From Heterodontus francisci (Eukaryota): a DNA stretch of 64,000 bases. This document shows, in pieces, positions 7,357 to 58,700 of this stretch. The notes under the pieces were generated by a model. That model was not told the DNA's origin. It worked only from the letters and a program-made list of their open reading frames with translations, and did not search any database. The position numbers were made by a program, and so were the translations under genes. Positions within the stretch are counted from its first letter, which is position 1. Each line of letters opens with the position of its first letter. Location of the stretch: positions 101,688,922-101,752,921 of the forward strand of contig NC_090375.1 in assembly GCF_036365525.1 (NCBI RefSeq). Direction: 5' to 3'.

Positions 7357-7938
7357 TGTGAGACAGGATGTCCTGATAATTGCCCTTCTGCATTTCAATT
7401 AAGACAGATTCAGAGTATCAATAAGTGATAGACTTGTAGGCCTCATGGGGATGGAAATGCAAGTAAAGATATTCGGAGACCATTCATGACTGGAATGTTG
7501 ATGGGGATAGCAATCATTCCTCATTGTGTGACAATGACTTAGGGCATCAAAGCATCTGTAGAGACAATGTATAGAAGGTGAGGTCATATCTGACCAATCA
7601 AAAGGGTTAAAGTGGAATGTAACCTAATATGGAATGAAGGCACCCTTGGAGGGGGTATAAAAGAAGGGTGCTGAGAGACATTGGGGTGAAAAGATTTGAT
7701 GAAGAGACCATACTACAGTCAACAGAACACAGAGAGAAGACTACGCCACAGCTGCTCAGGAGGCAAGAACCGAGGACACTCTGCACGCTGCTGTATAACT
7801 ACTACCGTTGGTTAGGTATTGCTTGTAAATCCTTGCTATGCTTAATAAACTCTCTATCCTGATTTAAGAATACCAGAGTCTGTACCCTGTGGGTCAAAGG
7901 CCAGTCAACGTTCTGCCCAAACACACAACAATCTTACA
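7357..7938 (+). mobile_element. Solo LTR, 582 bp
   Basis: Inverted termini TGTGAGAC...ATCTTACA; flanks TTGC/ATGC match at 3 of 4 bases; CCAAT 7594, TATAAAAG 7656 and AATAAA 7844 are in canonical LTR order. Confidence 0.7.
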
Positions 7939-8181
7939 ATGCACTTGGAGAGGATGGGACAATGGGAGACACTAGAGGGACATGAATAATCAGATCTACC
8001 TTGATGATGAAAAAATCCATAATCCCTTTGCAATTGTTGTTTGAGAGGCCGGCAGAGGGGCTTCGAAAAGAGGTTGATAGTAGAGAAGAGGAATCTGTGT
8101 TTACCTTTATTAGAATGATTCTCTATTAGTGGGCTGTTTTGGCAGAGGAGAGCTAGGTCAGGTAGAACTTGATGTGGTCCG

Positions 8182-8405
8182 TGTCTCTCAGCACCCTTCT
8201 TTTATATCCCCTCCAAGGGTGCCTTCATTCCATATTAGGTTACATTCCACCTTAACCCTTTCGATTGGTCATATATGACCTCACCTTCTATACATTGTCT
8301 CTACAGGTGCTTTGATGGCCTAAGTCATTGTCACACAATGAGAAATGATTGCTATCCCCATCAACATTCCAGTCATGAATGGTCTCCAAATATCTTTACT
8401 TGCAT
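8182..8405 (-). repeat. Inverted duplicate of 7457-7680 (LTR promoter segment)
   Basis: 224-bp reverse-complement match with about 8 mismatches by eye. Confidence 0.95.
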
Positions 8406-9486
8406 GGATGCCTAAACCAGTTACGCATCAAGTATGCTCAAGTTTGTGCTCTTTGAAATTAAGAAAGTGAAGGTGGTGGCCCTACCAGAGGAATGACTGT
8501 ATATGGAGATGGTTAAAGTTTTGCTGGGGACAAAGAAATGCAGTGGTAGTATTATGAATGAAAAGTTAAAGGCTCATCATTATGGAGTTTGAGTATGCAG
8601 TTATAAGTGACATGGGGAGAATTTTCTCCTGGAGCTAATACAGAAGGAAGCAATGTTGAAAGAGGGTAGGGGGATATGGGTAGTGAGGCATACAAGGAAG
8701 TGGTCATGGCCTTGTCAGTGATTGAAACCATGATAGTGGAGAGCTCACAGAAAATGGTGACGTCAAGGAATAGGTATGAAAATGGATAGGCAAGTTTATA
8801 TGGACGGAGAAGTTTAGAGAGGACAAGAGGGCAGTGAACTCAAAGGAGGGAGTGCACAGGAAGCTGAGATGGCAATTGAAAACCCCACGGATGAGGAATT
8901 GCTTGATGCATTCACAGAGGTAGGAAGAAAGGAGGACATCTCAGGGAGAATCTCATGGCTGTGCTTGGATGGGCAGTAGACAATAAGGATTTTAAAGAGG
9001 CAAGAAGGGTGGAACTCGTTGAGGAGGTTGAAGGAGGATAAGGTGTCAGAGAATACAGAGCAAGTCCGAAGTGTGACTTGCTGATGGGGCCTCGATGGGT
9101 TTTGCACATAACTTGAAAGAAAGTTAATTTCTGAGGTATTGTTGATAACAATATGATGAAGCTGGTCAAATATGTTAAATGAGTGGAAGCTGTGGCAAAG
9201 AGGAGAGCTAGGCCAGGTAGAACTTGATGTGGGATAATCTGAGACTTTTGTGCTGGTGTGTCAAAAGCATAACATTAGAATTTCAGCGGTACTAAGTAAC
9301 CTGAAACTACATTGTTAAACTTTGATACTGTTAATATTCAGACTGGTATTCGCCAAGTAACTCAGGAGATTATAGATTAATTTCCCACATTAATGCAACA
9401 ACCAAAGTGCCATGTTTTTCTGATTAGTTTACTGAGAAGAAATCTAATGCAGACATCTACACAGCAGTTTATTTCAAGTAGTATAT

Positions 9487-10038: not shown

Positions 10039-10890
10039 GGGATGGAATTTTATGCTCTCCCCCGCAGTGGGTACGGAGGCAGAGAGAGCTTAAAATTGGG
10101 TGGGATGGTGGTGGGGAGGAGACCCCGCCACCATCCCGCCTCTACCGAAATTTAGTCTGGAGTGGGAAGGCCTGTGAATGGCTTTCCTGCACTGCCACCA
10201 ATTGAGGTTCTTAACTGTGTAATTAACTCCTAAGTAAAAACCTCTTCCCACCACAGCCACAATTACCCATGCGGCAGGCGGCCCTGTCGCCACATGGGAA
10301 GCACAGCACAAAAAACCGTGCGGGCTGCTTCCCAGCTGTGATGGAGGTGGTCCCTCGTTCAAAGGCACTTAGTGCCTAGTGCCTGTGTGAGGGACCTGGC
10401 ATTGGGAAGTGTGGGGACGGCCCACTGACAGCCACCACCCTACCCTTGGTGCTGACACGTCTACATCCCTCCCCCACGACCCCCACCCTTGAGACCCCCT
10501 CCCGCCCTGATCTACCTTGAGCCCGGTTCCAGCGCCACTCTTCAGCCTCCGCAATGGAGCTGCAGCTGCCAGCCTCTGATTGGCCAGCAGCTCTGCAAGT
10601 CCGAGACCTCTGGCGGCGGGGTCCTAAATCATACAGAAGGCCTGATGCTGTCCAGTTAAGTGCATGATCGGCACTATATTTGGCTGGCCTTCCATACATG
10701 AGCTGACATGGAGATTATGACAAGTAAACTCCTGTCTGAAACAGCCAGCGGCCTGGGAGTCATTGTGAAGGCTTCAAATAAAATGGCAGAGGAAGGAATG
10801 AGTGCAAGAATGGGACATAAGTTCAATGCCATGATTTTAAGAGCCTAACAATCCTGATGTCGCCTAATGAAGGCTTTGAAAATCAGCCCC
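10039..10890. mobile_element. GC-rich non-autonomous Harbinger-type element (MITE)
   Basis: Degenerate TIRs GGGATGGAATTTT / GAAAATCAGCCCC, flanked by TAA and TAT. Internal sequence is related to 13820-14220, 49970-50600 and 52991-53732. Confidence 0.55.
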
Positions 10891-11799: not shown

Positions 11800-12949
11800 C
11801 CCATGGGTGCTGTAGTTGCCATTGCCTTGATATGCAGCATGAGAGGGAGATGGAACAAGGGCAGCACAGAAGTGGACAAGCTGCTTGCAGAGAGAGGAGG
11901 GGGAAGAAAAGCTCTCAGCAGGTGGGTCTTCCAAAAGTATTTCTTTTAACACACCCTAAGCCAGGAGCGGTGTGTGCGTTGTTTGCATTTTACAAAGGAG
12001 ATGCTCACAGAACTCCACCACCTCTTGCAACTCAGACCTGCAACTTCAGACCACGGCAAGGATGGTCCTGCCAGTGACTGTGAAGGTGACCCCGGGCTTG
12101 AATTTCTTTGCATCAGGATCATTCCAGGCTGGACCTCACAACATATATAGCATCTGCTGTATAAGAGAGCTGTCTATTGCTGTATATGAGAGGTGACAGA
12201 TGCTTTTATGCCAGGAGAGGGGAATTCATTGTGTTCTCTGTAAACAGAGGGAATCAGGCAAAGCGTGGACATGGCTTTGCCAAGATAGCAAATTTCCAGA
12301 TGGTGTAGGGTGCCACCAACAGCATACACGTGGCTTTGCAACACCTCAGCCCAATGCTCAGATTTACCACAACTGCAAATGTTACCACTCACTGAGTGCA
12401 GTTGCTGCAGAATGCCCTCTATCCTGGCAGCAGTTATGATGCTTTTATTCTTGCCAGTCTGTTGTTCCCTCAGTATTTGAACCACCACACCAAACCAGAC
12501 GGTAGCTGCCAGGAGACAATGTCTATCTGTTTAACACCTGGCTCATGATTCCACTTCGCAACCCAATCGCAGGTGGACAGCATGTGTACAATGAAAGCCA
12601 TGCTGCCACACGAAACATCATCGAGCTGACCACTGAAGTGCTGAAGCAATGGTTCAGCTGCCTGGATCGCTCTGGAGGAGCCCTGCAGCATTCACTGGAG
12701 TGTGTGCTCCAGTTTGTGGCAGTCTGCTGTATCCTCCACAACCCAGCCATCATGTGCACACAGTCCTTGTCACCAGGCATATGGCAAATAGTTAAGGATC
12801 AGAAGGAGGAGGAGGAGGAGGAGGAGCAGGAGGAAGAGAGGACACAGCCAACATCCCCTTTCGAGCTGGGCTGTCCGTGATCACCTCATCCAACTGATCA
12901 TCCAGCTGAATACATTGAATACAGCAAAGGCTATGGGCCCTGTGATTAG
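11800..12949 (+). pseudogene. PIF/Harbinger (HARBI1-like DDE) transposase, decayed
   Basis: LPVTVKVTPGLNFFASGSFQ in ORF 11972..12196; PLRNP...YNESHAATRNIIE...LKQWFSCLDRSGGALQH...CCILHN plus an acidic tail in ORF 12545..12880. Confidence 0.88.
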
Positions 12950-13195
12950 CCAGGATGCTGATGGTGGGGGATTCAACATTGATATTGCCCATGAATGTTA
13001 TGGCAGATGGTTAGATTTTCTCTTTTTGGAGGTAATAATTGCCTGACACTTGTGTGGCGCGAATATCACTTGTCACTTATCAGCCCAAGCCTGAATGTTA
13101 TCCAGGTCTTGCTGCATCTGGACACCGACTGCTTCAGTATCTGAAGAGTCACTAATGGTGCTGAACTTTGTGCAATCATCAGCGAACATCCCCAC
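12950..13195 (-). repeat. Inverted duplicate of LINE segment 13693-13819 + 15855-15973
   Basis: 246-bp reverse-complement match, about 7 mismatches by eye. It is continuous across the point where the forward copy is split. Confidence 0.93.
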
Positions 13196-13819
13196 CTACC
13201 CAACAATGTGGGAAATTGCCCAGATATATCCTGTCCACAAGAGGCAGGACAAATCCAATCTGGCCAATTACTGCCCCCCATCAATCTACTCTCAATCATC
13301 AGCAAAATGATGGAAGGTGTTATCGACAGAGCTATCAAGTAGCACTGACTCAGCAATCACCTGCTCACAGATCCTCAGTTAGCTTTCTGTCAGGGCCACT
13401 CAGATCCAGACCTCATTGGATCCTTGGTCCAAACATGAACAAAGGACTTGATTCCAGAAGTGAGGTGAGAGTGACTGCCCTTGACATCAAGGCAGCATTT
13501 GACCAAGTGTGTCATCAAGGAGCCCTTGCAAATTGAAGTCAATGGGAAAACTCGCCAATAGTTGGAGTCATATCTGGAGGCCAATCATCTCAGCCCCATG
13601 ACATTGCTGCAGGAGTTCCTCAGGGTAGTGTCCTAGGCCCAACCATCTTCAGCTGCTTCATCAATAACTTTCCCTCCATCATAAGGTCAGAAGTGGGGAT
13701 GTTCGCTGATGACTGCACAATGTTCAGCACCATTAGTGACTCTTCAGATACTGAAGCAGTCGGTGTCCAGATGCAGCAAGACCTGGATAACATTCAGGCT
13801 TGGGCTGATAAGTGACAAG

Positions 13820-15296
13820 GGGGGGTTCAGCAGCAAGGGCAGTGGGTGACTCTCAACAGGCCCCCCTTCCCGATACTGGGTCCCTCATTCAGGCACTAAG
13901 TGCCTTTTAATGGGCCCCCCCTCACCCCCACCATGCCAAAAGCCGGCAAGCACCCCGCACAGATTTGCTTGGTGTGCTCCTCGTGTGGAGACTGGCTCGC
14001 CCGCCACTGGACTAATTCCGGCGATGGCAAGATGTGGCCCTTCATTGGTCATTAATTAAGGGTTTCAATCAGCAGTGGGGTGGGAAGGCAGGTTCCCACC
14101 CCAGTCTTAATTTGGGTGGAGGCAGGAAGGTGGCAGGGTGCCCACCCTACCACCATCCTGCCCAATTATACGCTCTCCCTGCATCCAAATCCGATGCGGG
14201 GAGATCTTAAAATTCCCCTCATTGTATGAACAACAAATAATGGATGAGTTTCTGTTATTCACTCATATGGCAGTAATTATCCCATTTTCCTTCACAAAAT
14301 TTTAGCACCCAAATTCCACTGCTGAGCTGTATTTTATGGGTCCCTGGGAGACGGCATGGGCAGTGGGAGGGGTCCATAAAATAGTGATGGAAGACAGCAG
14401 ATGGTTTGCCTATCACCATGTGATTTTGTTAGGGGGTGGGAAAGACCAAAGACAGCCATCCGGCCCAGAGGCCAGTTGAGGCCCATAAGTGGCTAATTAA
14501 TAGCCACTTACGTCCTCTACCAGCCGCCACTAATATTTTACCAGTGGCTGGTGGGAGCCCCGCCACGTGGGGAGGTTGCCCAGTAAAACAAGGTGGCCTC
14601 CTGCGGGCTTGGCGGAGCTGGGGTTTGCGAGCCCTCCTCCGTGGGCAATCTGTGGCCCACAGAAGGCACCTGGTGGCGGAGGCTGCCCCTCCGCTAATAA
14701 CTCCCACCCCTGCCCTCATCGAACACCAGCACCCCCCTTGCCATGACCTGTTGGACTGGCCCTGGCGACCCTGCCACACTTACCTGTGGTCCGGGGTGGG
14801 CGGTGGGGTTTGGAGTTTTGTTCATGGAGTTTTAACAAAGGAGGGCTCAGCCACAGCTGTGGCTAGGGAACCTGCTGCTGTGTTGGTGGAATGTCGGGAA
14901 TGGTGGGGTCTTTGGATGTGGAGAGCTGGTCCAATGGTGGGGGGGGTGGTGGGTGGGGTGGAGGTCCAATGGCATGGTAGAAGGTAGCTTGGTGAGCTGA
15001 GATGAAGCACTCCTGCTCCTTCTGTCCCACAAGTAGTGCTGTGAGGCAACCTACCGTTTCCCCAAAACTGTCTTTCCCTCTCTTTAGTTGTCACATTTCC
15101 TGGCCAGGGTTAAACCTGCAAATGAGGCTTTTGTAATTACTTATTACAATATTTAAATGGTCAACATGCAACCTGGGAGCGGGCTGGCTGCCCGCCCCCT
15201 GTCCCGCCTCAAGGTTGGGGTCCAGTTTGAGATTTTCATAATTTTTACATTTCACTTGACACCAACCTACCCATTTTTGGGGTTAAAAGTACCCCC
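13820..15296. mobile_element. Fragments of GC-rich Harbinger-type MITEs
   Basis: 13820-14220 matches the internal and terminal part of the 49970-50600 and 10039-10890 family; 15100-15290 resembles 28190-28400. Confidence 0.55.
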
Positions 15297-15515
15297 TGGG
15301 AGTTAGTTTTGGTTCCTCACCATTCTATTGAGTTCAGTCATACTGTTTTAGGAGGCAAGGGGTATCCTTGCAGAAAGGAAGAGAAAATCTAGATGGAGAG
15401 TTCCCACCAGGGCACTGTTAATTGCCATCTGGGAAATGGCTAAGAATAGTATTAGCAGTAGGCTGAAAACAGAAAGGCTCTCATAACATCAAAGGTATAG
15501 GAGATGGCTGGGAAA

Positions 15516-15853
15516 GGGTGGCACAGTGGCGCAGTGGTTAGCACCGCAGCCTCACAGCTCCAGCGATCCGGGTTCAATTCTGGATACTGCCTGTGTGGAG
15601 TTTGCAAGTTCTCCCTGTGTCTGCGTGGGTTTCCTCCAGGTGCTCCGGTTTCCTCCCACATGCCAAAAGACTTGCAGGTTGATAGGTAAATTAGCCATTA
15701 TAAATTGCCCCTAGTATAGGTAGGTGGTAGGGAAGTGTGGGGATGTGGTAGGAATATGGAATTAATGTAGGATTAGTATAAATGGGTGGTTGATGGTCGG
15801 CACAGACTCGGTGGGCCAAAGGGCCTGTTTCAGTGCTGTATCTCTAAAAAAAA
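15516..15853 (+). mobile_element. HE1-type tRNA-derived V-SINE
   Basis: A box TGGCGCAGTGG, B box GGTTCAATTCT, V-domain core TGTGTGGAGTTTGCAAGTTCTCCC...CCGGTTTCCTCCCACA, CR1-like tail GGGCCTGTTTCAGTGCTGTA followed by A8. Confidence 0.92.
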
Positions 15854-16639
15854 GTGACATTCGCACCACACAAGTGTCAGGCAATTATTACCTCCAAAAA
15901 GAGAAAATCTAACCATCTGCCATGACATTCATGGGCAATATTAATGTTGAATTCCCCACCATCAGCATCCTGGGGGTTACCATTGACCAGAAACTAAACT
16001 GGACCAGCCATATAAATATTGTGGTTACAGGAGCAGGTCAGAAGCTGGGAATTCTGCTGAGAATAACTCACCTCCAGACTCCCCAAAGCCTGCCCACCAT
16101 CTACAAGGCACAAGCCAGGAGTGTGATGGAATACTCTCCACTTGCCTGGAAGAGTATAGCTCCAACAGCACTCAAGAAGTTCGACATCATCCAGGACAAA
16201 GATGCCGCTTAATTAGTACCCCATCCACCAACTTCAACATTCACTCTCTCCACCACCGGTGCACAGTGGCAGCAGTGTGTACCATCTACAAGATGCACTG
16301 CAGCCATTTTCCAAGTCTCCTTCAAAAGCACCTCCCAAACCCGCGACCTCTTCCACCTAGAAGAATAAGGGCAGCAGATGCATGGGAACACCACCACCTG
16401 CAAGTTTCCCTCCAAGCCACACACCATCCTGACTTGGAACTATATCGTTGTTCTTTCACTGTCGCTGGGTCAAAATCTTGGAACCCCTTCTCTAATAACA
16501 CTGTGGGTGTACCTACACCCCAAGTACTGCAGCAGTTCAAGAAGGCAGCTCACCACCGCCTTTTCAAGGGCAATTAGAAATGGGCAGTAAATGCTGACCT
16601 AGCCAGCAACGCTCACATCCCATGAACGAATAGGAAAAG

Positions 16640-17896
16640 CTATGATTCCAATGAGTACAACACCAAATCACCATTACACAACAGTCACACAATTTACACA
16701 TCACAACATCCACTTGGCCGCAATTCTGAAGTGAAAGCCACCACGAAACAACCATTCCAAATCAACTTTATCCAACAAAAAATCTAATATTCCATACAAA
16801 AGTCAACTAATTACCCTTGTGTATTTCCTGAATACTTCTGTGTGCTTTTGCCTGTCCTAGTGCTCCTATACCGTGCTACCCCAGTGGCTGCAGCATGGTT
16901 AGTAGAAGGCTGCTGATTTTCAATGGGGGGAGCTGCAGATGACTTTTGTGAATGGCTTGGGGCAGTCCTAAGCCTATAAGACCCAGCTTCAGACTGCACC
17001 AGCTCAGCATGGGAGGCAGCAGTCTGTGCTGGCTGGCAGAGAGGCAGTGGTGGGAGACGAATGCTGTCATACTGAGAGAGGTCAGCAGGATTGTGCTCCA
17101 TGAAGCCACTGTCATTCCCCCAGGCAGTGCCACGGATATCTTAATAATCTACTGGATCACTGATTGCTGAACTGCTGCAAGCTCCTTTGAACTCTGGTAA
17201 CCGCAGCCATAATGGCAGCAGTCTGAGCTTGCAAGGCAACAAGCTGACATTCCAGGAACTTGGCCTGAACTTCCACTTCAGCACCCAGAGATTGGGTTGC
17301 TTCTGCTTGTACTCCAATGGAAGCTGAGCCATCGACCATCAGACGCTGCATCATGGTTGGGTCCAATTGTTCTCATGTAGTTGGCTGTCATTACATGCTA
17401 CAAAGGATGGGCTCCAATCTCTGCACAAAGCCCTGTGACAAGTTGGAGATGGACTCCTCCATGCTCCTTGGCAGCGACATCAGGTTTCCTGGCAGGCCTT
17501 CCAATGCACCAAAGCATTTCATTGTGCATGTGCATCAGCCTTTTTCTGTACACCACCCCATCTGAGTCCTCTGCAGCAGAACTCGTATGCAATCTTACCC
17601 ACCAGGAAGCTGGCAGCTGCACTCTTCTACCTTGGCTGCAGACCACTCGTGCCCAGTGACTCACATATGCCGAATCCATTCTAACGTACGTGCTGTACCA
17701 GCATCTGAGCTGGTGGCTGCAAATGAGAGATCGAGTGACGATGTTTCTTCTTCATCAGTGTCATACTCCACTTCAACCTCAGTGCTTGACCAGATGCCAA
17801 TTCTTGCATATTCAAAAGGATAAAGGCACAAGGGTAGGCTTGTATGAGGGAAGACAGGGTAAGCAAGAGGTGCATGTTTACACCGCTTACACTTTT
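16640..17896 (-). mobile_element. Harbinger element, remnant of the second (Myb/SANT-type) gene; probably the continuation of the 11800-12949 element
   Basis: Convergent to the transposase; acidic/Ser-rich and coiled-coil-like remnants (EEETSSLDLSFAATSSD, RSMEESISNL) parallel to 61800-62300. Confidence 0.5.
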
Positions 17897-21665: not shown

Positions 21666-21900
21666 TTACACATAAATCCTTAAAGGTAGCACAGCAAGTT
21701 GATAAGGTGGTTAAAAATATGGATTCCGATGGATTACTTACAGAGGAATAGAATATAAAAGCAAAGAGATCATGCTAAAACTGTATAAATCACTAGCTGG
21801 GCCTCAGCTGGATTAGAACAAAGAACAAAGAACAAAGAAAATTACAGCACAGGAACAGGCCCTTCGGCCCTCCAAGCCTGCGCCGATCCAGATCCTCTAT

Positions 21901-24856
21901 CTAAACATGTTGCCTATTTTCCAAGGGTCTGTATCTCTTTGCTTCCTGCCCATTCATGTATCTGCCGAGATACATCTTAAAAGACGCTATCGTGCCCGCA
22001 TCTACCATCTCCGCTGGCAACGCGTTCCAGGCACCCACCATCCTCTGCGTAAAGAACTTTCCACGCATATCCCCCCTAAACTTTACCCCTCTCACTTTGA
22101 ACTCGTGACCCCTAGTAATTGAATCCCCCACTCTGGGAAAAAGCTTCTTGTTATCCACCCTGTCTATACCTCTCATGATTTTGTACACCTCAATCAGGTC
22201 CCCCCTCAACCTCCGTCTTTCTAATGAAAATAATCCTAATCTACTCAACCTCTCTTCATAGCTAGCGCCCTCCATACCAGGCAACATCCTGGTGAACCTC
22301 CTCTGCACCCTCTCCAAAGCATCTACATCCTTTTGGTAATGTGGCGACCAGAACTGCACGCAGTATTCCAAATGTGGCCGAACCAAAGTCTTATACAACT
22401 GTAACATGACCTGCCAACTCTTGTACTCAATACCCCGTCCGATGAAGGAAAGCATGCCGTATGCCTTCTTGACCACTCTATTGACCTGCGTTGCCACCTT
22501 CAGGGAACAATGGACCTGAACACCCAAATCTCTCTGTACATCAATTTTCCCCAGGACTTTTCCATTTACTGTATAATTCACTCTTGAATTGGATCTTCCA
22601 AAATGCATCACCTCGCATTTGCCCTGATTGAACTCCATCTGCCATTTCTCTGCCCAACTCTCCAATCTATTTATATTCTGCTGTATTCTCTGACAGTCCC
22701 CTTCACTATCTGCTACTCCACCAATCTTAGTGTCGTCTGCAAACTTGCTAATCAGACCACCTATACTTTCCTCCAAATCATTTATGTATATCACAAACAA
22801 CAGTGGTCCCAACACGGATCCCTGTGGAACACCACTGGTCACACGTCTCCATTTTGAGAAACTCCCTTCCACTGCTACTCTCTGTCTCCTGTTGCCCAGC
22901 CAGTTCTTTATCCATCTAGCTAGTACACCCTGGACCCTATGCGACTTCACTTTCTCCATCAGCCTACCATGGGGAACCTTATCAAACGCCTTACTGAAGT
23001 CCATGTATATGACATCTACAGCCCTTCCCTCATCAATCAACTTTGTCACTTCCTCAAAGAATTCTATTAAGTTGGTAAGACATGACCTTCCCTGCACAAA
23101 ACCATGTTGCCTATCACTGATAAGCCCATTTTCTTCCAAATGGGAATAGATCCGATCCCTCAGTATCTTCTCCAGCAGCTTCCCTACCACTGACGTCAGG
23201 CTCACCGGTCTATAATTACCTAGATTTTCCCTGCTACCCTTCTTAAACAAGGGAACAACATTAGCAATTCTCCAGTCCTCCGGGACCTCACCCGTGTTTA
23301 AGGATGCTGCAAAAGATATCTGTTAAGGCCCCAACTATTTCCTCTCTCGCTTCCCACAGTAACCTAGGATAGATCCCATCCGGACCTGGGGACTTGTCCA
23401 CCTTAATGCCTTTTAGAATACCCAACACTTCCTCCCTCCTTATGCCGACTTGACCGAGAGTAATCAAACATCTGTCCCTAACCTCAACATCCATCATGTC
23501 CCTCTCCTCGGTGAATACCGATGCAAAGTACTCGTTTAGAATCTCACCCATTTTCTCTGACCCCACGCATAACTTTCCTCCTTTGTCCTTGAGTGAGCCA
23601 ATCCTTTCTCTAGTTACCCTCTTGCTCCTTATATATGAATAAAAGGCTTTGGGATTTTCCTTAACCCTGTTTGCTAAAGATATTTCATGACCCCTTTTAG
23701 CCCTCTTAATTCCTCGTTTCAGATTGGTCCGACATTCCCGATATTCTTTCAAAGCTTCGTCTTTCTTCAGCCTCCTAGACCTTATGTATGCTTCCTTTTT
23801 CCTCTTAGCTAGTCTCACAATTTCACCTGTCATCCATGGTTCCCTAATCTTGCCATTTCTATCCCTCATTTTCACAGGAACATGTCTCTCCTGCACGCTA
23901 ATCAACCTCTCTTTAAAAGCCTCCCACATATCAAATGTGGATTTACCTTCAAACAGCTGCTTCCAATCTACATTCCCCAGCTCCTGCCGAATTTTGGTAT
24001 AGTTGGCCTTCCCCCAATTTAGCACTCTTCCTTTGGGACCACTCTCGTCTTTGTCCATGAGTATTCTAAAACTTACGGAATTGTGATCACTATTCCCAAA
24101 GTCGTCCCCTACTGAAACGTCAACCACCTGGCCGGGCTCATTCCCCAACACCAGGTCCAGTATGGCCCCTTCCCGAGTTGGACTATTTACATACTGCTCT
24201 AGAAAACCCTCCTGGATGCTCCTTACAAATTCTGCTCCATCTGGACCTCTAACACTAAGTGAATCCCAGTCAATGTTGGGAAAATTAAAATATCCTATCA
24301 CCACCACCCTGTTGCTCCTACATCTTTCCATAATCTGTTTACATATTTGTACCTCTATCTCACACTCGCTGTTGGGAGGCCTGTAGTACAGCCCCAACAT
24401 TGTTACCGCACCCTTCCTATTTCTGAGTTCTGCCCATATTGCCTCACTGCTCGAGTCCTCCATAGTGCCCTCCTTCAGCACAGATGTGATATCCTCTTTG
24501 ACCAGTACTGCAACTCCTCCACCCCTTTTACCTCCCTCTCTATCCCGCCGGAAGCATCGATATCCTGGGATATTTAGTTGCCAATCATGCCCTTCCCTCA
24601 ACCAAGTCTCAGTAATAGCAATAACATCATACTCCCAGGTACTAATCCAGGCCCTAAGTTCATCTGCCTTACCTACTACACTTCTTGCATTAAAACAAAT
24701 GCACCTCAGACCACCAGTCCCTTTGCGTTCATCATCTGCTCCCTGTCTACTCTTTCTCTTTGTCATGCTTACTTCATTATTTAGTTCCTTACAGGCTTTA
24801 GTTACTACCTCCTTACTGTCCACTGACCTCATTTGGTTCCCATCCCCCTGCCACAT
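21901..24856 (-). pseudogene. CR1 ORF2 (APE endonuclease + reverse transcriptase), single frameshift near 23311
   Basis: CFNARS, TETWL, YYRPPN and SDHN in the endonuclease; QGSVLGP and FADD in the RT. The two ORFs join if one base of an A4 run is removed. Confidence 0.93.
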
Positions 24857-26355: not shown

Positions 26356-27091
26356 CCTGGGGAAAATTGATGTCCAGAGAGATTTGGGTGTTCAGGTCCA
26401 TTGTTTCCTGAAGGTGGCAACGCAGGTCAATAGAGTGGTCAAGAAGGCATACGGCATGCTTTCCTTCATCGGACGGGGTATTGAGTACAAGAGTTGGCAG
26501 GTCATGTTACAGTTGTATAGGACTTTGGTTCGGCCACATTTGGAATACTGCGTGCAGTTCTGGTCGCCACATTACCAAAAGGATGTAGATGCTTTGGAGA
26601 GGGTGCAGAGGAGTTTCACCAGGATGTTGCCTGGTATGGAGGGCGCTAGCTATGAAGAGAGGTTGAGTAGATTAGGATTATTTTCATTAGAAAGACGGAG
26701 GTTGAGGGGGGACCTGATTGAGGTGTACAAAATCATGAGAGGTATAGACAGGGTGGATAACAAGAAGCTTTTTCCCAGAGTGGGGGATTCAATTACAAGG
26801 GGACACGAGTTCAAAGTGAAAGGGGAAAAGTTTAGGGGGGATATGCGTGGAAAGTTCTTTATGCAGAGGGTGGTGGGTGCATGGAACGCATTGCCAGCGG
26901 AGGTGGTAGACGCGGGCACGATAGCGTCTTTTAAGATGTATCTAGACAGATACATGAATGGGCAGGAAGTAAAGAGATACAGACCCTTAGAAAATAGGCG
27001 ACGGGTTTAGATAGAGGATTTGGATCGGCGTAGGCTTGGAGGGCCGAAGGGCCTGTTCCTGTGCTGTAATTTTATTTGTTCTTTGTTCTTT
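26356..27091 (+). mobile_element. 5'-truncated CR1 of the same family as 21815-26125
   Basis: Near-identical reverse complement of 21815-22553, with its own TTCTTTG tail. Confidence 0.93.
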
Positions 27092-27899
27092 GATGAGTGG
27101 GTAAATAACTAGAGGACATAGATTTAAAATCATTTTCAAAAGATCTAGAGAGGAGATGAGAAGAAATGTTTTCACTCAGAGAGATGTCAGGATCTCGAAT
27201 GCTGTACCTGAAAAGGTGGTGGAAGTGATTTCAGAAATAATTTAAGAGGGAGATGGACAGTTACTTGAAGATGAGAAATTTACAGTATTATGGACAAAAG
27301 GGGAAGATGTGGATCTGAGCACAACTATTCTTTCAATGAACCAGCACAGGCATGATGGGCTAAATGGCCTCCTTCGGTGGTCTAAGTTTCCATGATTCTA
27401 TAACTCTAACTACATTGTTGTTACTGTCTGTCAGGTTCGGTTCATTAGGTTAAAGGAAAATTGTCAAATGTTCAGAAATAAAGTCAAGTTCAGTTTAATT
27501 CAGTTAACTTCAGCTTAAAGCACAAAAAAATTGTGATGCATTCAATATTATTTTTTGAATTGGTAACATTTTGTAACTTCAAAGCCATGTAATTTGTTTC
27601 TTTTCCATTATGTTAATTAAGTGATCTACCTTACCACAAAACATACCTTTAACCTTAGACATCGGGAAAAGGCCTTGAAATTATACTGTGTGAATAGTCG
27701 CACATGAATGTTTTACACATTTATGTGAAGGTCCTTTGTTTTCTGTTTCAAGAGGTTCATATGTCTATTAAAATAGCAGTCACAAGAATTTTTTTACTAA
27801 CACATTAAACATATTCATATTCTTTATTTTCAAGGCCCTAATAAGCAATAAAAGCAAGGTACAAATTAAAGTAAATAAGCTCCAAGATATTCTGTCATG

Positions 27900-32823: not shown

Positions 32824-33183
32824 ATTAGATTAGATTAGATTAGAGATACAGCACTGAAACAGGCCCTTCGGCCCACCGAGTCTGTGCCGACCATCAACCA
32901 CCCAGTTATACTAATCCTACACTAATCCCATATTCCTACCCAACATCCCCACCTGACCCTATATTTCCCTACCACCTACCTATACTAGTGACAATTTATA
33001 AAGGCCAATTTACCTACCAACCTGCAAGTCTTTTGGCTTGTGGGAGGAAACCGGAGCACCCGGAGAAAACCCACGCAGACACAGGGAGAACTTGCAAACT
33101 CCACACAGGCAGTACCCAGAATCGAACCCGGGACCCTGGAGCTGTGAGGCGGCAGTGCTAACCACTGCGCCACTGTGCCGCCC
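32824..33183 (-). mobile_element. HE1-type V-SINE with (TCTAA)n tail
   Basis: Reverse complement of the 15516 and 58056 SINEs; intact A box and B box (GGTTCGATTCT). Confidence 0.93.
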
Positions 33184-49975: not shown

Positions 49976-50600
49976 GATTTTATCTGGATCTCTAACTTTG
50001 GCAAAAGTGCTGGTGAGAACCCTGTGTTGCCCCTTCTGTGAGAGGCCTGCCAAATCAAGTGCTAATTAGGCACTTAATTGGAGAGCAGAGGGCCTTCCAA
50101 TGGAAGCAAGGACCCCGGCGATGGATGTTCCGCCCTCTGAAAGATACTAGCCAATCAGAAGCTGGCAGCTCTTTAACTGAGCAGCGCCACTGCACAGGCA
50201 GTGACTGCTGCTGGTACAGCACCCACCTGAGGCCTAGAAGCGGTGCTGGACCCAGGCCACAGGTAGGTTAGGGTGGGAGGGGACTTGTGGGGGAGGGGAT
50301 GTGGGGGTCAGCAGCAAGGAAAGGGGGGTGGTTCTTAGCGGGCCCCCCACTTCCTGATGCTTGGTGCCTCATTAAGTGTCTTTTAATGAGGGAGATCCAC
50401 CCCTACCCACAGAGATGGCAAGCAACCAACACGGTGTTTCTTGCCATGCTTCCTGTGTAGCGACAGGCCCGTCCGCCGCTGGGCTAATTGCAGCGGTGGT
50501 GGGATGAAGCCCTTAATTGGGCATTAATTGCCCACTTAAGGGCCTCAATTTGTGATGGGGCAGGAAGGCCATTCACAGATGGAGTCTACCCCTCCACCAT
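49970..50600. mobile_element. Harbinger-type MITE, truncated by a CR1
   Basis: Starts GGCTGGGATTTTA; internal match to 13820-14100 and to the reverse complement of 10200-10600. Confidence 0.6.
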
Positions 50601-55798: not shown

Positions 55799-58700
55799 TC
55801 GCAAGTGAAATAAATGAAGGGGAACTAGTAAATAAGGCCAGTAAGACTAAGAGGAAGAGCAGGCAGGGAGATGTTGCTGAGCACAGCGGGACTGGTGGTC
55901 TGAAGTGCATTTGTTTCAATGCGAGAAGTATAACAGGTAAGGCAGATGAACTTAGAGCTTGGATTAGTACTTGGAACTATGATGTTGTTGCTATTACAGA
56001 GACTTGGTTGAGGGAAGGACAGGATTGGCAGCTAAATGTTCCAGGATTTAGAAGCTTCAGGTGGGATAGAGGGGGATGTAAAAGGGGTGGGGGAGTTGCA
56101 TTACTGGTTAAGGAGAATATCACAGCTATACTGCGGGAGGACACCTCGGAGGGGTCATGCAGCGAGGCAATATGGGTGTAGCTCAGGAATAGGAAGGGTG
56201 CAGTCACGATGTTGGGGGTTTACTACAGGCCTCCCAACAGCCAGCGGGAGGTAGAGGAGCAGATATGTAGACAGATTTTCGAAAGATGTAAATGTAACAG
56301 GGTTGTAGTGGTGGGTGATTTTAACTTCCCCTATATTGACTGGGACTCACTTAGTGCTAGGGGCAGAATTTGTAAGGAGCATCCAGGAGGGCTTCTTGAA
56401 ACAATACGTAGATAGTCCAACTAGGGATGGGGCCGTACTGGACCTGGTATTGGGGAATGAGCCCGGCCAGGTGGTCGAAGTTTCAGTAGGGGAGCATTTC
56501 GGGAACAGTGACCATAATTCCATAAGTTTTAAGGTACTTGTGGATAAGGATAAGAGTAGTCCTCGGGTGAAGGTGCTAAATTGGGGGAAGGCTAATTATA
56601 ACAATATTAGGCGGGAACTGAAGAATTTAGATTGGGGGCGGCTGTTTGAGGATAAATCAACATCTGACATGTGGGAGTCTTTCAAACGTCAGTTGATTAG
56701 AATTCAGGACCAGCATGTTCCTGTGAGGAAGAAGGATAAGTTTGGCAAGTTTCAGGAACCTTGGATAACGCGGGATATTGTGAGCCTCGTCAAAAAGAAA
56801 AAGGAAGCATTCGTAAGGGCTGGAAGGCTAGGAACAGACGAATCCCTTGAGGAATATAAAGACAGTAGGAAGAAACTTAAGCAAGGAGTCAGGAGGGCTA
56901 AAAGGGGTTATGAGAAGTCATTGGCAAACAGGATTAAGTAAAATCCCAAGGCTTTTTATACGTATATAAAGAGCAAGAGGGTAACCAGGGAAAGGGTTGG
57001 CCACTCTAGAACAGAGAAGGGAATCTATGTGTGGGGCCAGAGGAAATGGGCGAGGTACGAAATGAGTACTTTGCATCAGTATTCACCAAGGAGAAGGACT
57101 TGGTGGATGATGAGCCTAGGGAAGGGAGTGTAGATAGTCTCAGTCATCTCATCATCAAAAAGGAGGAGGTGTTTGGGTGTCTTGCAAAGCATTAAGATAG
57201 ATAAGTCCCCAGGGCCTGATGGGATCTACCCCAGAATACTGAGGGAGGCAAGGGAAGAAATTGCTGGGGCCTTGACAGAAATCTTTGCATCCTCATTGGC
57301 TACAGGTGAGGTCCCAGAGGACTGGAGAACAGCCAATGTTGTTCCTTTGTTTAAGAAGGGTAGCAAGGATAATCTAGGAAATTATAGGCCGGTGAGCCTT
57401 ACATCAGTGGTAGGGAAATTATTAGAGAGGATTCTTCGGGACAGGATTTACTCCCATTTGGAAAAAAACAAACTTATTAGCGAGAGGCAGCATGGTTTTG
57501 TGAAGGGGAGGTCGTCTCTCACTAATTTGATTGAGTTTTTTGAGAAAGTGACAAAGATGATTGATGAAGGAAGGGCAGTGGATGTTATCTATATGGACTT
57601 CAGTAAAGCCTTTGACAAGGTCCCTCATGGCAGACTGATACAAAAGGTGAAATCACATGGGATCAGAGGGGAGCTGGCGAGATGGATACAGAACTGGCTC
57701 GGTCATAGAAGACAGAGGGTAGCAGTGGAAGGGTGCTTTTCTGAATGGAGGGATGTGACTAGTGGTGTTCTGCAGGGATCAGTGCTTGGACCTTTGCTGT
57801 TTGTAGTAAATATAAATGATTTGGAGGAAAATGTAGCTGGTCTGATTAGTAAGTTTGCGGACGACACAAAGGTTGGTGGAGTTGCGGACAGTGATGAGGA
57901 TTGTCAGAGGATACAGCAGGATATAGATCGGTTGGAGACTTGGGCGGAGAAATGGCAGATGGAGTTTAATTCGGACAAATGTGAGGTAATGCATTTTGGA
58001 AGGTCAAATGCAGGTGGGAAGTATACAGTAAATGGCAGAACCCTCAGGAGTATTTGGCGGCACAGTGGCGCAGTGGTTAGCACCGCAGCCTCACAGCTCC
58101 AGCGACCCGGGTTCAATTCTGGGTACTGCCTGTGTGGAGTTTGCAAGTTCTCCCTGTGTCTGCGTGGGTTTCCTCCGGGTGCTCCGGTTTCCTCCCACAT
58201 GCCAAAGACTTGCAGGTTGATAAGTTAATTGGCCATTATAAATTGCCCCTAGTATAGGTAGGTGGTAGGGAAATATAGGGACACGTGGGGATGTGGTAGG
58301 AATATGGGATTAGTGTAGGATTAGTATAAATGGGTGGTTGATGGTCGGCACAGACTCGGTGGGCCGAAGGGCCTGTTTCAGTGCTGTATCTCTAAACAAA
58401 AATTGACAGGCAGAGAGATCTGGGCGTACAGGTCCACAGGTCACTGAAAGTGGCAACGCAGGTGGATAAGGTAGTCAAGAAGGCATACGGCATGCTTGCC
58501 TTCATCGGTCGGGGCATAGAGTATAAAAATAGGTAGGTCATGCTGCAGCTTAACAGAACTTTAGTTAGGCCGCACTTAGAATATTGCGTGCAATTCTGGT
58601 CGCCACACTACCAGAAGTACGTGGAGGCTTTGGAGAGGGTACAGAAGAGGTTTACCAGGATGTTGCCTGGTTTGGAGGGCATTAGCTATGAGGAGAGGTT

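What the first reader, a model, noticed from the sequence alone, without database searches (positions are those of the whole stretch)
13820..15853. A 2-kb composite insert ending in an HE1 SINE tail: candidate SINE-driven 5' transduction
Seen: the block starts abruptly inside a MITE, runs through MITE pieces and unique DNA, and ends at the CR1-type tail plus A8 of an HE1 SINE. Only AAG is duplicated at the junctions, and the SINE's own left flank does not match its right flank. Known: CR1-clade RT recognises the 3' tail that HE1 shares. Inference: a read-through transcript ending in the SINE tail was retroposed with about 1.7 kb of upstream flank, a route for SINEs to move neighbouring DNA.
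Basis: partly seen in the sequence, partly recalled or inferred. Interest (0 to 1): 0.7.

Follow-up and report, generated by a model that had tools for sequence, protein, structure and literature searches.

The report
Shark SINE carrying upstream DNA
A 2-kb block of non-coding DNA that ends exactly at the tail of a short jumping element sits cleanly inserted in an older retrotransposon, likely because a long RNA ending in that element was copied back into the genome, but the source copy that would prove this was not found.

Summary
The insert is real in the window. It spans 13820-15854 and splits a decayed RT-bearing LINE. An inverted duplicate of that LINE (12950-13195, 7/246 differences) keeps the empty site with one AAG; the filled site has AAG at both ends. 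The block starts inside a repeat and ends at the tail of a full-length HE1-type SINE, and another copy of this SINE in the window also has a 3-nt duplication. One correction: AAAG lies at both ends of the SINE itself, which fits a SINE that already sat in a donor locus. The donor test was only partly possible: no genome is held. Contigs of one sample cover the unique DNA with one contig, 0 differences, and no diverged second copy at 80% or more. An identical donor is undecided (depth 1.5-1.7x other loci in one run, 0.8x in another; an unexplained contig end 3 nt into the SINE). Best reading: tail-primed retroposition of a Pol II transcript with its 5' flank (0.5). Rivals: fresh SINE plus captured 5' DNA (0.22), DNA-repair insertion (0.15). 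One event, non-coding cargo, donor unproven.

The parts
12930..12935 (+). GCTATG, left copy of the host LINE's likely target-site duplication
   Evidence: same hexamer follows the LINE tail at 16639-16644; TSD reading is inference
12936..12949 (.). 14 nt of unassigned 5' filler before the inverted arm
12950..13195 (-). Inverted duplicate of the host LINE across the insertion point; keeps the empty site with one AAG
   Evidence: 7 differences in 246 nt against 13693-13819 plus 15855-15973
13196..13819 (+). Host LINE, part left of the insert (decayed RT frame)
   Evidence: Pfam RVT_1 E=2.1e-9 on 13597-13812; stops and frameshifts in the translations
13817..13819 (+). AAG, left copy of the 3-nt duplication
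13820..14218 (+). Right-hand part of a high-copy non-coding repeat (MITE-like; label recalled), cut about 235 nt inside its shared left part
   Evidence: 65-70% to copies at 10044-10455 and 50303-50569; thousands of partial contig matches
14219..14323 (.). Unique DNA 1
   Evidence: no copy in the window beyond a weak 43-nt match; bin 14267-14325 depth 11.9 against 11.5 for the one 383-nt contig
14324..15297 (.). Second repeat-derived stretch (MITE-like pieces; limits approximate)
   Evidence: 62-77% patches elsewhere in the window; patchy high depth
15298..15515 (.). Unique DNA 2
   Evidence: no copy in the window; bins 15329-15446 depth 10.4, equal to the one 883-nt contig
15513..15516 (+). 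AAAG at the SINE's left edge, also found at 15851-15854; candidate duplication of the SINE's own earlier insertion
   Evidence: interpretation is inference
15516..15851 (+). Full-length HE1-type SINE with A-box (15519) and B-box (15572) motifs, CR1-type tail and A-run
   Evidence: 8 substitutions (all C>T or G>A) and a deletion of about 10 nt against the other two copies; family name recalled
15852..15854 (+). AAG, right copy of the 3-nt duplication
15855..16638 (+). Host LINE, part right of the insert, to its 3' end
   Evidence: continues the arm at the next base; its 3' end does not share the SINE tail (alignment score 18 against 57-61 for three other LINE ends)
16639..16644 (+). GCTATG, right copy of the host LINE's likely target-site duplication

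Best explanation
The 2,035-nt block is a clean insertion into an older LINE, and it was likely made when the reverse transcriptase of a CR1-type LINE bound the tail of a SINE lying inside a longer RNA and copied through the whole SINE into 1.7 kb of upstream DNA. Steps: (1) shown: a LINE with a 5' inverted duplicate was in place first, and the duplicate lacks the block; (2) inferred: at a donor locus the SINE already sat in repeat-rich DNA, perhaps with its own AAA(G) duplication; (3) inferred: an RNA polymerase II transcript ran through that locus in the SINE's sense (14 runs of four or more T's on this strand argue against polymerase III read-through); (4) inferred: the enzyme nicked the target, primed on AAG at the tail end and copied 2 kb before stopping inside a repeat; (5) shown: the result is flanked by AAG with no target base lost. 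If the donor still exists, it must be almost identical, so the event would be recent.
For: Empty site in cis, no target loss, 3-nt duplication. The SINE copy at 58056 has a 3-nt duplication too: ATT twice in the filled site, once in an uninterrupted LINE copy; the third copy shows none that I could see, so 1 of 2 comparators. Zebrafish ZfL2-1 inserts carry 1-8-bp duplications in 93% of cases in DT40 cells (PMC4245944), and about 80% of ZfL2-2 copies have 3' microhomology (PMC2666801). The 3' end falls at the tail, chance 0.0004-0.0008. In the eel system the 3' tail is reported as the only cis element needed for mobilisation in trans (PMC1636434). AAAG at both SINE ends and 8 decay-type substitutions in 330 nt (2.4%), against at most about 1.4% per lineage since the arm formed (7/246 pairwise), lean towards a SINE older than the move. 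No AATAAA or ATTAAA in the block, so a cryptic poly(A) end is not needed to explain the 3' end.
Against: The donor was not found. In four runs of one sample the contigs at 14110-14492 and 14636-15518 match the window with 0 differences (listed for all four runs), and in run X1 at 80% likeness the unique bins hold the depth of that one contig; a donor that had diverged by even 1% should have shown as a second contig or as other letters (the tool warns that filters drop records). Depth does not settle an identical donor: 1.5-1.7x the median of 10 listed other-locus contigs in X1, 0.8x the median of 5 in X4; X1-X3 appear to share reads, and depth is not a copy number. The 883-nt contig stops at 15518, 3 nt into the SINE, in all four runs; a fork there is expected if a donor lacks the SINE, and needs a C/T variant at the 15519 CpG under this model. 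The SINE-age argument is weak (8 observed against about 5 expected). A 3-nt match is short. One event only.
Confidence: 0.5

Rival explanations
1. A new SINE copy was inserted by ordinary tail priming; at the SINE's 5' end the enzyme or the repair machinery jumped to another RNA or DNA and added 1.7 kb before joining the target. The donor of the 1.7 kb then has no SINE.
For: Same 3' anatomy as the best reading. The SINE is full length, where end-to-end jumps are expected. The 883-nt contig ends at 15518 in 4 of 4 runs, and the extra depth in bin 15447-15505 allows only about 4 of 10.4 to continue into the SINE if the overlap is 30 nt (short contigs may be filtered out). About 40% of ZfL2-2 copies have 5' extra nucleotides (PMC2666801).
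Against: Reported 5' extras come mostly from the flanks (PMC4245944), and L1 templated insertions are typically under 250 bp and within 15 bp of the site (bioRxiv 2024.08.27.596794); no source lies in the window. AAA at the SINE's left edge would be chance. If recent, the source SINE would have had to carry 8 decay-type changes and a deletion; if old, the donor must have been lost.
Confidence: 0.22
2. DNA-level templated insertion at a break: a 2-kb stretch was copied or captured from elsewhere by end-joining or synthesis-dependent repair, with AAG as microhomology, and happens to end at a SINE tail.
For: Class 2 templated insertions exist in germ lines and show microhomology (PMC5110952). No splicing or cap mark points to RNA; the 5' G-run is native to the repeat. 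A scan of many windows will meet rare coincidences.
Against: Needs a 0.0004-0.0008 coincidence at the tail plus a clean join with an apparent duplication, whereas class 2 events are described with no duplication and with microdeletions. It also predicts a donor.
Confidence: 0.15
3. Two separate events: the 1.7-kb block (13820-15516, which itself ends in AAG) was inserted first, and the SINE later landed on its right junction with an AAAG duplication.
For: Removing the SINE with one AAAG leaves a block flanked by AAG on both sides.
Against: The SINE must hit the junction to the base. The SINE is no younger by its decay than the arm that predates the block. A SINE-less allele would fork the contig at 15516, not 15518.
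Confidence: 0.05
4. Assembly artefact: single-copy DNA from elsewhere was joined into the LINE in the assembly.
For: One contig, 0 differences and about single depth in X4 fit a single true location; no listed contig bridged a junction.
Against: A mis-join that leaves and re-enters the LINE at adjacent bases with a 3-nt duplication and ends at a SINE tail is not how assemblers err (own knowledge). The piece tables were cut to 32 of hundreds of thousands or thousands of rows, so missing bridges say little.
Confidence: 0.04

Closest known systems
SVA 5' transduction, and SVA_F1 with a 3'-terminal AluSp (PMC3287187, passages)
   Same: A non-autonomous element is retroposed together with upstream sequence from a Pol II transcript; a SINE at the RNA's 3' end raised mobilisation of the upstream RNA about 25-fold in that paper (another group found 2-fold or less).
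   Different: L1 machinery and poly(A) recognition, long duplications, sources identified. Here a tRNA-type SINE with a CR1-type tail, a 3-nt duplication, no poly(A) signal and no source found.
Tail-dependent mobilisation of SINEs by CR1-group LINEs (UnaL2/UnaSINE; HE1/HER1 pair) (PMC1636434; PMC3747384; passages)
   Same: SINE tail shared with LINE ends in the same genome; engineered RNAs bearing the tail are mobilised in trans.
   Different: Those reports concern SINE RNAs and engineered constructs; here natural flanking DNA five times the SINE's length lies inside the duplication.
5' extra nucleotides and templated insertions at LINE junctions (PMC4245944, PMC2666801, bioRxiv 2024.08.27.596794)
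   Same: Foreign DNA between the 5' target flank and an element with a normal 3' end.
   Different: Usually short and local; this one is 1.7 kb with no source within the 64-kb window.
Templated sequence insertion polymorphisms, classes 1 and 2 (PMC5110952, parts 1-2 of 4)
   Same: Non-element genomic DNA copied to a distant site.
   Different: Class 1 needs a duplication of 5 bp or more, a poly(A) signal and 10-40 A's, all absent here; class 2 has no duplication and no link to an element's tail.
Alu-driven transduction survey (bioRxiv 2024.04.29.591526, parts 1-2 of 3)
   Same: Asks whether a SINE can carry flanking DNA.
   Different: It looked 100 bp upstream and 4,500 bp downstream, so at 3' transduction only, and confirmed none among 118,489 AluY copies; 5' cargo was not examined.

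Membership tests
HE1-type (V-SINE) tRNA-derived SINE | Pol III A and B boxes in the head | tested here: met
   motifs at 15519 and 15572 (patterns recalled); ARAGORN and Rfam found nothing in the window
HE1-type (V-SINE) tRNA-derived SINE | 3' tail shared with a CR1-type LINE of the same genome | tested here: met
   82-84% over 44 nt to three LINE ends; RT frame of one such LINE hits RVT_1, E=2.8e-34
HE1-type (V-SINE) tRNA-derived SINE | Tail folds into a stem-loop | tested here: inconclusive
   similar hairpins in 4 of 4 tails folded, but z only -1.0 to -1.9
HE1-type (V-SINE) tRNA-derived SINE | Identity to the reference HE1 sequence and V domain | not testable with these tools
   no repeat library; the name is recalled, the HE1/HER1 pairing is from a table in PMC3747384
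5' transduction by a retroelement | Flank and element lie inside one target-site duplication at a shown empty site | tested here: met
   AAG at 13817-13819 and 15852-15854; one AAG in the arm; only 3 nt
5' transduction by a retroelement | 3' end at the element's priming tail | tested here: met
5' transduction by a retroelement | Source locus with the same element and the same 5' flank but another 3' flank | tested here: inconclusive
   no diverged copy laid at 80-88% or more; identical copy undecided; no genome held
5' transduction by a retroelement | Upstream transcription through the source | tested here: inconclusive
   one run guessed to be RNA was laid; see Tried and rejected
Class 1 templated insertion (cryptic poly(A)) | Duplication of 5 bp or more, poly(A) signal, 10-40 added A's | tested here: not met
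   3 nt, no AATAAA/ATTAAA, 6-8 A's that belong to the SINE tail
Multi-copy composite element | The whole block recurs in the genome | tested here: not met
   unique bins carry the depth of one contig; no copy in the window
Segmental duplication | Homology continues beyond the element into shared flanks | tested here: not met
   both ends abut the same host LINE at adjacent bases

The most novel reading that the evidence does not exclude
In genomes run by tail-specific CR1-group LINEs, the many SINE copies lying in sense within Pol II transcripts act as portable priming tags, so any upstream intron or exon can be retroposed. This insert is one natural product, and sharks hold a hidden class of tail-ended retroduplications with very short target duplications that standard searches miss.
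Probability: 0.3. Interest if true: 0.62.

Novelty: new variant of a known kind. Interest (0 to 1): 0.33.

Why it matters
Tail-specific ('stringent') LINEs are thought to copy only RNAs that bear their tail (PMC3747384, passages), and genomes dominated by them are held to make few processed copies of ordinary RNAs (recalled). A natural case in which a resident SINE lets such an enzyme copy 1.7 kb of neighbouring DNA would give these genomes a route to retroduplication, and it is testable by a simple genome survey. SINE-driven transduction is poorly documented: a survey of AluY confirmed no 3' case and did not look at 5' cargo. As it stands this is one event with non-coding cargo and no proven source, so it is a lead and not a demonstration.

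Tried and rejected
Whole-genome search: no genome is held. Donor inside the window: none for the unique DNA, and no truncated left half of the first repeat. Earlier scan notes by place, sequence, relatives and words: nothing on this stretch; one search listed 8 of 88 notes, all on a tRNA-headed LINE, which do not bear on this. Relatives: contigs of organisms C (X11, about 92% read) and D (X16) and one run guessed to be RNA from the same sample (X6) gave depth 0 over the unique bins at 80% likeness; lack of cover proves nothing. I laid 7 of the 24 runs listed; the four raw-read runs were left out because they are capture or RAD libraries and no SbfI, PstI or EcoRI site lies in the block. One search was flooded by LINE and SINE copies (about 146,000 records a run), so joints and loose ends at the block's ends could not be read; one search was flooded by repeat copies at the left junction. 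Joints that skip the block (13814-13819 to 15852-15863) are not evidence of an empty allele: other copies of the LINE give them. A flank-based baseline (6.7 for X1, 7.4 for X4 after correcting for words shared with the arm) gave the same split answer as the medians. DNA transposon or Helitron: the block's ends are not inverted repeats and it has no such termini by eye; not pursued. Pol III read-through: 14 T-runs. Co-insertion with the host LINE: the arm lacks the block; the arm is nearly centred on the site (127 and 119 nt), which I take as chance (17% of the LINE lies in the arm) but cannot explain further. Literature: ten searches listed no report of 5' transduction by an HE1- or CR1-tailed SINE; the term with the prime sign cannot be searched, most listings were seen as titles and abstract starts only, and subscription papers are missing, so this is a weak negative. 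PMC9132208 (abstract only), PMC2912911 and PMC13343379 (passages) added nothing decisive. No supplements were read; those of the two preprints are closed and could hold junction lists that bear on how long 5' extras can be.

Full report
Setting. The window is repeat-rich animal DNA with CR1-type LINEs and a tRNA-type SINE that I recognise as HE1 of sharks and rays (name recalled; the HE1/HER1 pair is listed in a table of PMC3747384, passages seen). No whole genome is held, so the donor test had to rely on the window and on contigs of public runs.

The insertion is real in the window. A decayed LINE runs on the + strand from 13196 to 16638; 13597-13812 hits Pfam RVT_1 at E=2.1e-9. It is interrupted after 13819 and resumes at 15855. 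An inverted copy at the LINE's 5' end (12950-13195) matches 13693-13819 with 2 mismatches in 127 nt and continues without a gap into 15855-15973 with 5 in 119. This arm is the empty site: it reads AAG once, while the filled site has AAG at 13817-13819 and 15852-15854, and no target base is lost. A 5' inversion with internal duplication is a described product of twin priming (bioRxiv 2024.08.27.596794, passages); with a 14-nt filler and GCTATG on both sides of the LINE I infer that the arm formed when the LINE inserted. The block is then younger than the arm, at most about 1.4% divergence per lineage.

Anatomy of the block. It starts inside a high-copy repeat: two other copies in the window match it from 13822-13827 at 65-70% and share about 235 nt more upstream. 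Then come unique DNA (14219-14323), repeat-derived pieces (14324-15297), unique DNA (15298-15515) and a full-length SINE from 15516, 90-93% like two other copies. Its tail is 82-84% like three LINE ends in the window over 44 nt and unlike the host LINE's own end, so the host is a passive target. The block has 14 runs of four or more T's on this strand and no AATAAA or ATTAAA: an RNA template would be a Pol II transcript, and the 3' end is not a cryptic poly(A) site.

Does the junction look like retroposition? A random break would fall at an outward-facing tail with probability 0.0004-0.0008 (post hoc). The SINE copy at 58056 has ATT on both sides where an uninterrupted LINE copy has it once; the copy at 33183 shows no duplication that I could see. 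ZfL2-1 inserts have 1-8-bp duplications in 93% of cases in DT40 and up to 9 bp in 21 of 30 in HeLa cells (PMC4245944, parts 2-3 of 5 read); about 80% of ZfL2-2 copies show 3' microhomology and about 40% have 5' extra nucleotides (PMC2666801, passages). The eel tail is reported as the only cis element needed in trans (PMC1636434, passages). So tail priming explains the right end well. It does not tell whether the 1.7 kb was on the same RNA or was added at the SINE's 5' end.

Two observations lean towards a SINE already present in the donor. And the SINE carries 8 substitutions in 330 nt, all C>T or G>A, plus a deletion of about 10 nt, somewhat more than the about 5 expected since the arm formed. 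Both are weak.

The donor test. Four runs of one sample hold 72-77% of the stretch's words; the other 16 holders hold 12% or less. Laid at 88%, all four list contigs at 14110-14492 and 14636-15518 with 0 differences, depth 9.9-11.5 in X1-X3 and 7.1-7.2 in X4. Laid at 80% without the LINE and most of the SINE, X1 gives 10.4 in bins 15329-15446, the depth of that one contig, and 11.9 in 14267-14325 against 11.5. So no diverged second copy was laid, with the tool's warning that filters drop records. An old event therefore needs a lost donor; a recent one needs a nearly identical donor merged into the same contigs. Depth does not decide: insert over the median of listed other-locus contigs is 1.5-1.7 in X1 (10 contigs) and 0.8 in X4 (5 contigs) (the 124-nt and flank contigs of this locus were left out of the medians); a flank-based baseline splits the same way; X1-X3 give nearly the same figures and probably share reads. 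One more clue: the 883-nt contig stops at 15518, 3 nt into the SINE, in 4 of 4 runs, whereas another contig runs 109 nt into its SINE. A fork there means two sequences: a C/T variant at the 15519 CpG (allele or donor), or a donor without the SINE. A 124-nt contig at 14481-14604 with 2 differences may likewise be an allele, a donor or another repeat copy. No listed contig bridged either junction.

Weighing. Tail-primed copying of a longer transcript explains the 3' end, the duplication, the AAAG match and the SINE's decay, and needs a recent or lost donor plus a variant at 15519 (0.5). A fresh SINE with a captured 5' piece explains the fork but needs an unusually long, distant filler and a decayed source SINE or a lost donor (0.22). 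A DNA-repair insertion needs the tail coincidence (0.15). Two events at one junction (0.05) and an assembly artefact (0.04) remain possible. These odds are my judgement, not computed.

Comparison with what is known. It works like SVA 5' transduction, and most closely like SVA_F1 RNAs that end in an AluSp and are mobilised better for it (PMC3287187, passages). It fails the class 1 templated-insertion test (PMC5110952) and is neither a multi-copy composite element nor a segmental duplication. Membership in '5' transduction' is not established, because the source locus is the defining feature and stayed inconclusive. Ten library searches listed no report of 5' transduction by a CR1-tailed SINE, a weak negative; an AluY survey confirmed no 3' case and did not examine 5' cargo.

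Verdict. Observation confirmed with two corrections; interpretation plausible and best supported, but unproven. New variant of a known kind; interest 0.33, rising to about 0.6 if a donor and further cases are found.

Noticed in passing
window 12930-13195 and 13196-16644: The host LINE has a 246-nt 5' inverted duplicate of an internal stretch, a 14-nt filler and GCTATG on both sides: a twin-priming-type insertion in a non-L1 LINE. Arm and host share a TGA stop just before the insertion point. The arm is nearly centred on the later insertion site (127 and 119 nt).
   Followed up: partly
window 12506-12877: The host LINE sits in a decayed DNA transposon: this frame hits Pfam DDE_Tnp_4 at E=8.7e-12 (Harbinger-like by recall).
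   Followed up: partly
window 7457-7680 and 8182-8405: 224-nt inverted repeat, 96% alike, 501-nt spacer, almost the same spacer as the arm at 13069-13195/13693-13819 (497 nt); a 34-nt piece at 8144-8177 recurs at 9199-9232. Possibly another fold-back insertion.
   Followed up: partly
window 21819-22555 and 26356-27092: 737-nt inverted pair, 97% alike, 3.8 kb apart, each arm being the 3' end of a CR1-type LINE with its tail facing outward: one element with two 3' ends.
   Followed up: no
window 58055-58404: A full-length SINE copy inside its partner-type LINE with a 3-nt duplication (ATT) and one extra T; the RT frame reads on across the empty site.
   Followed up: yes
window 15518/15519: Contigs of the sample end here in 4 of 4 runs, 3 nt into the SINE, at a CpG-derived T: two sequences exist at this point.
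   Followed up: partly
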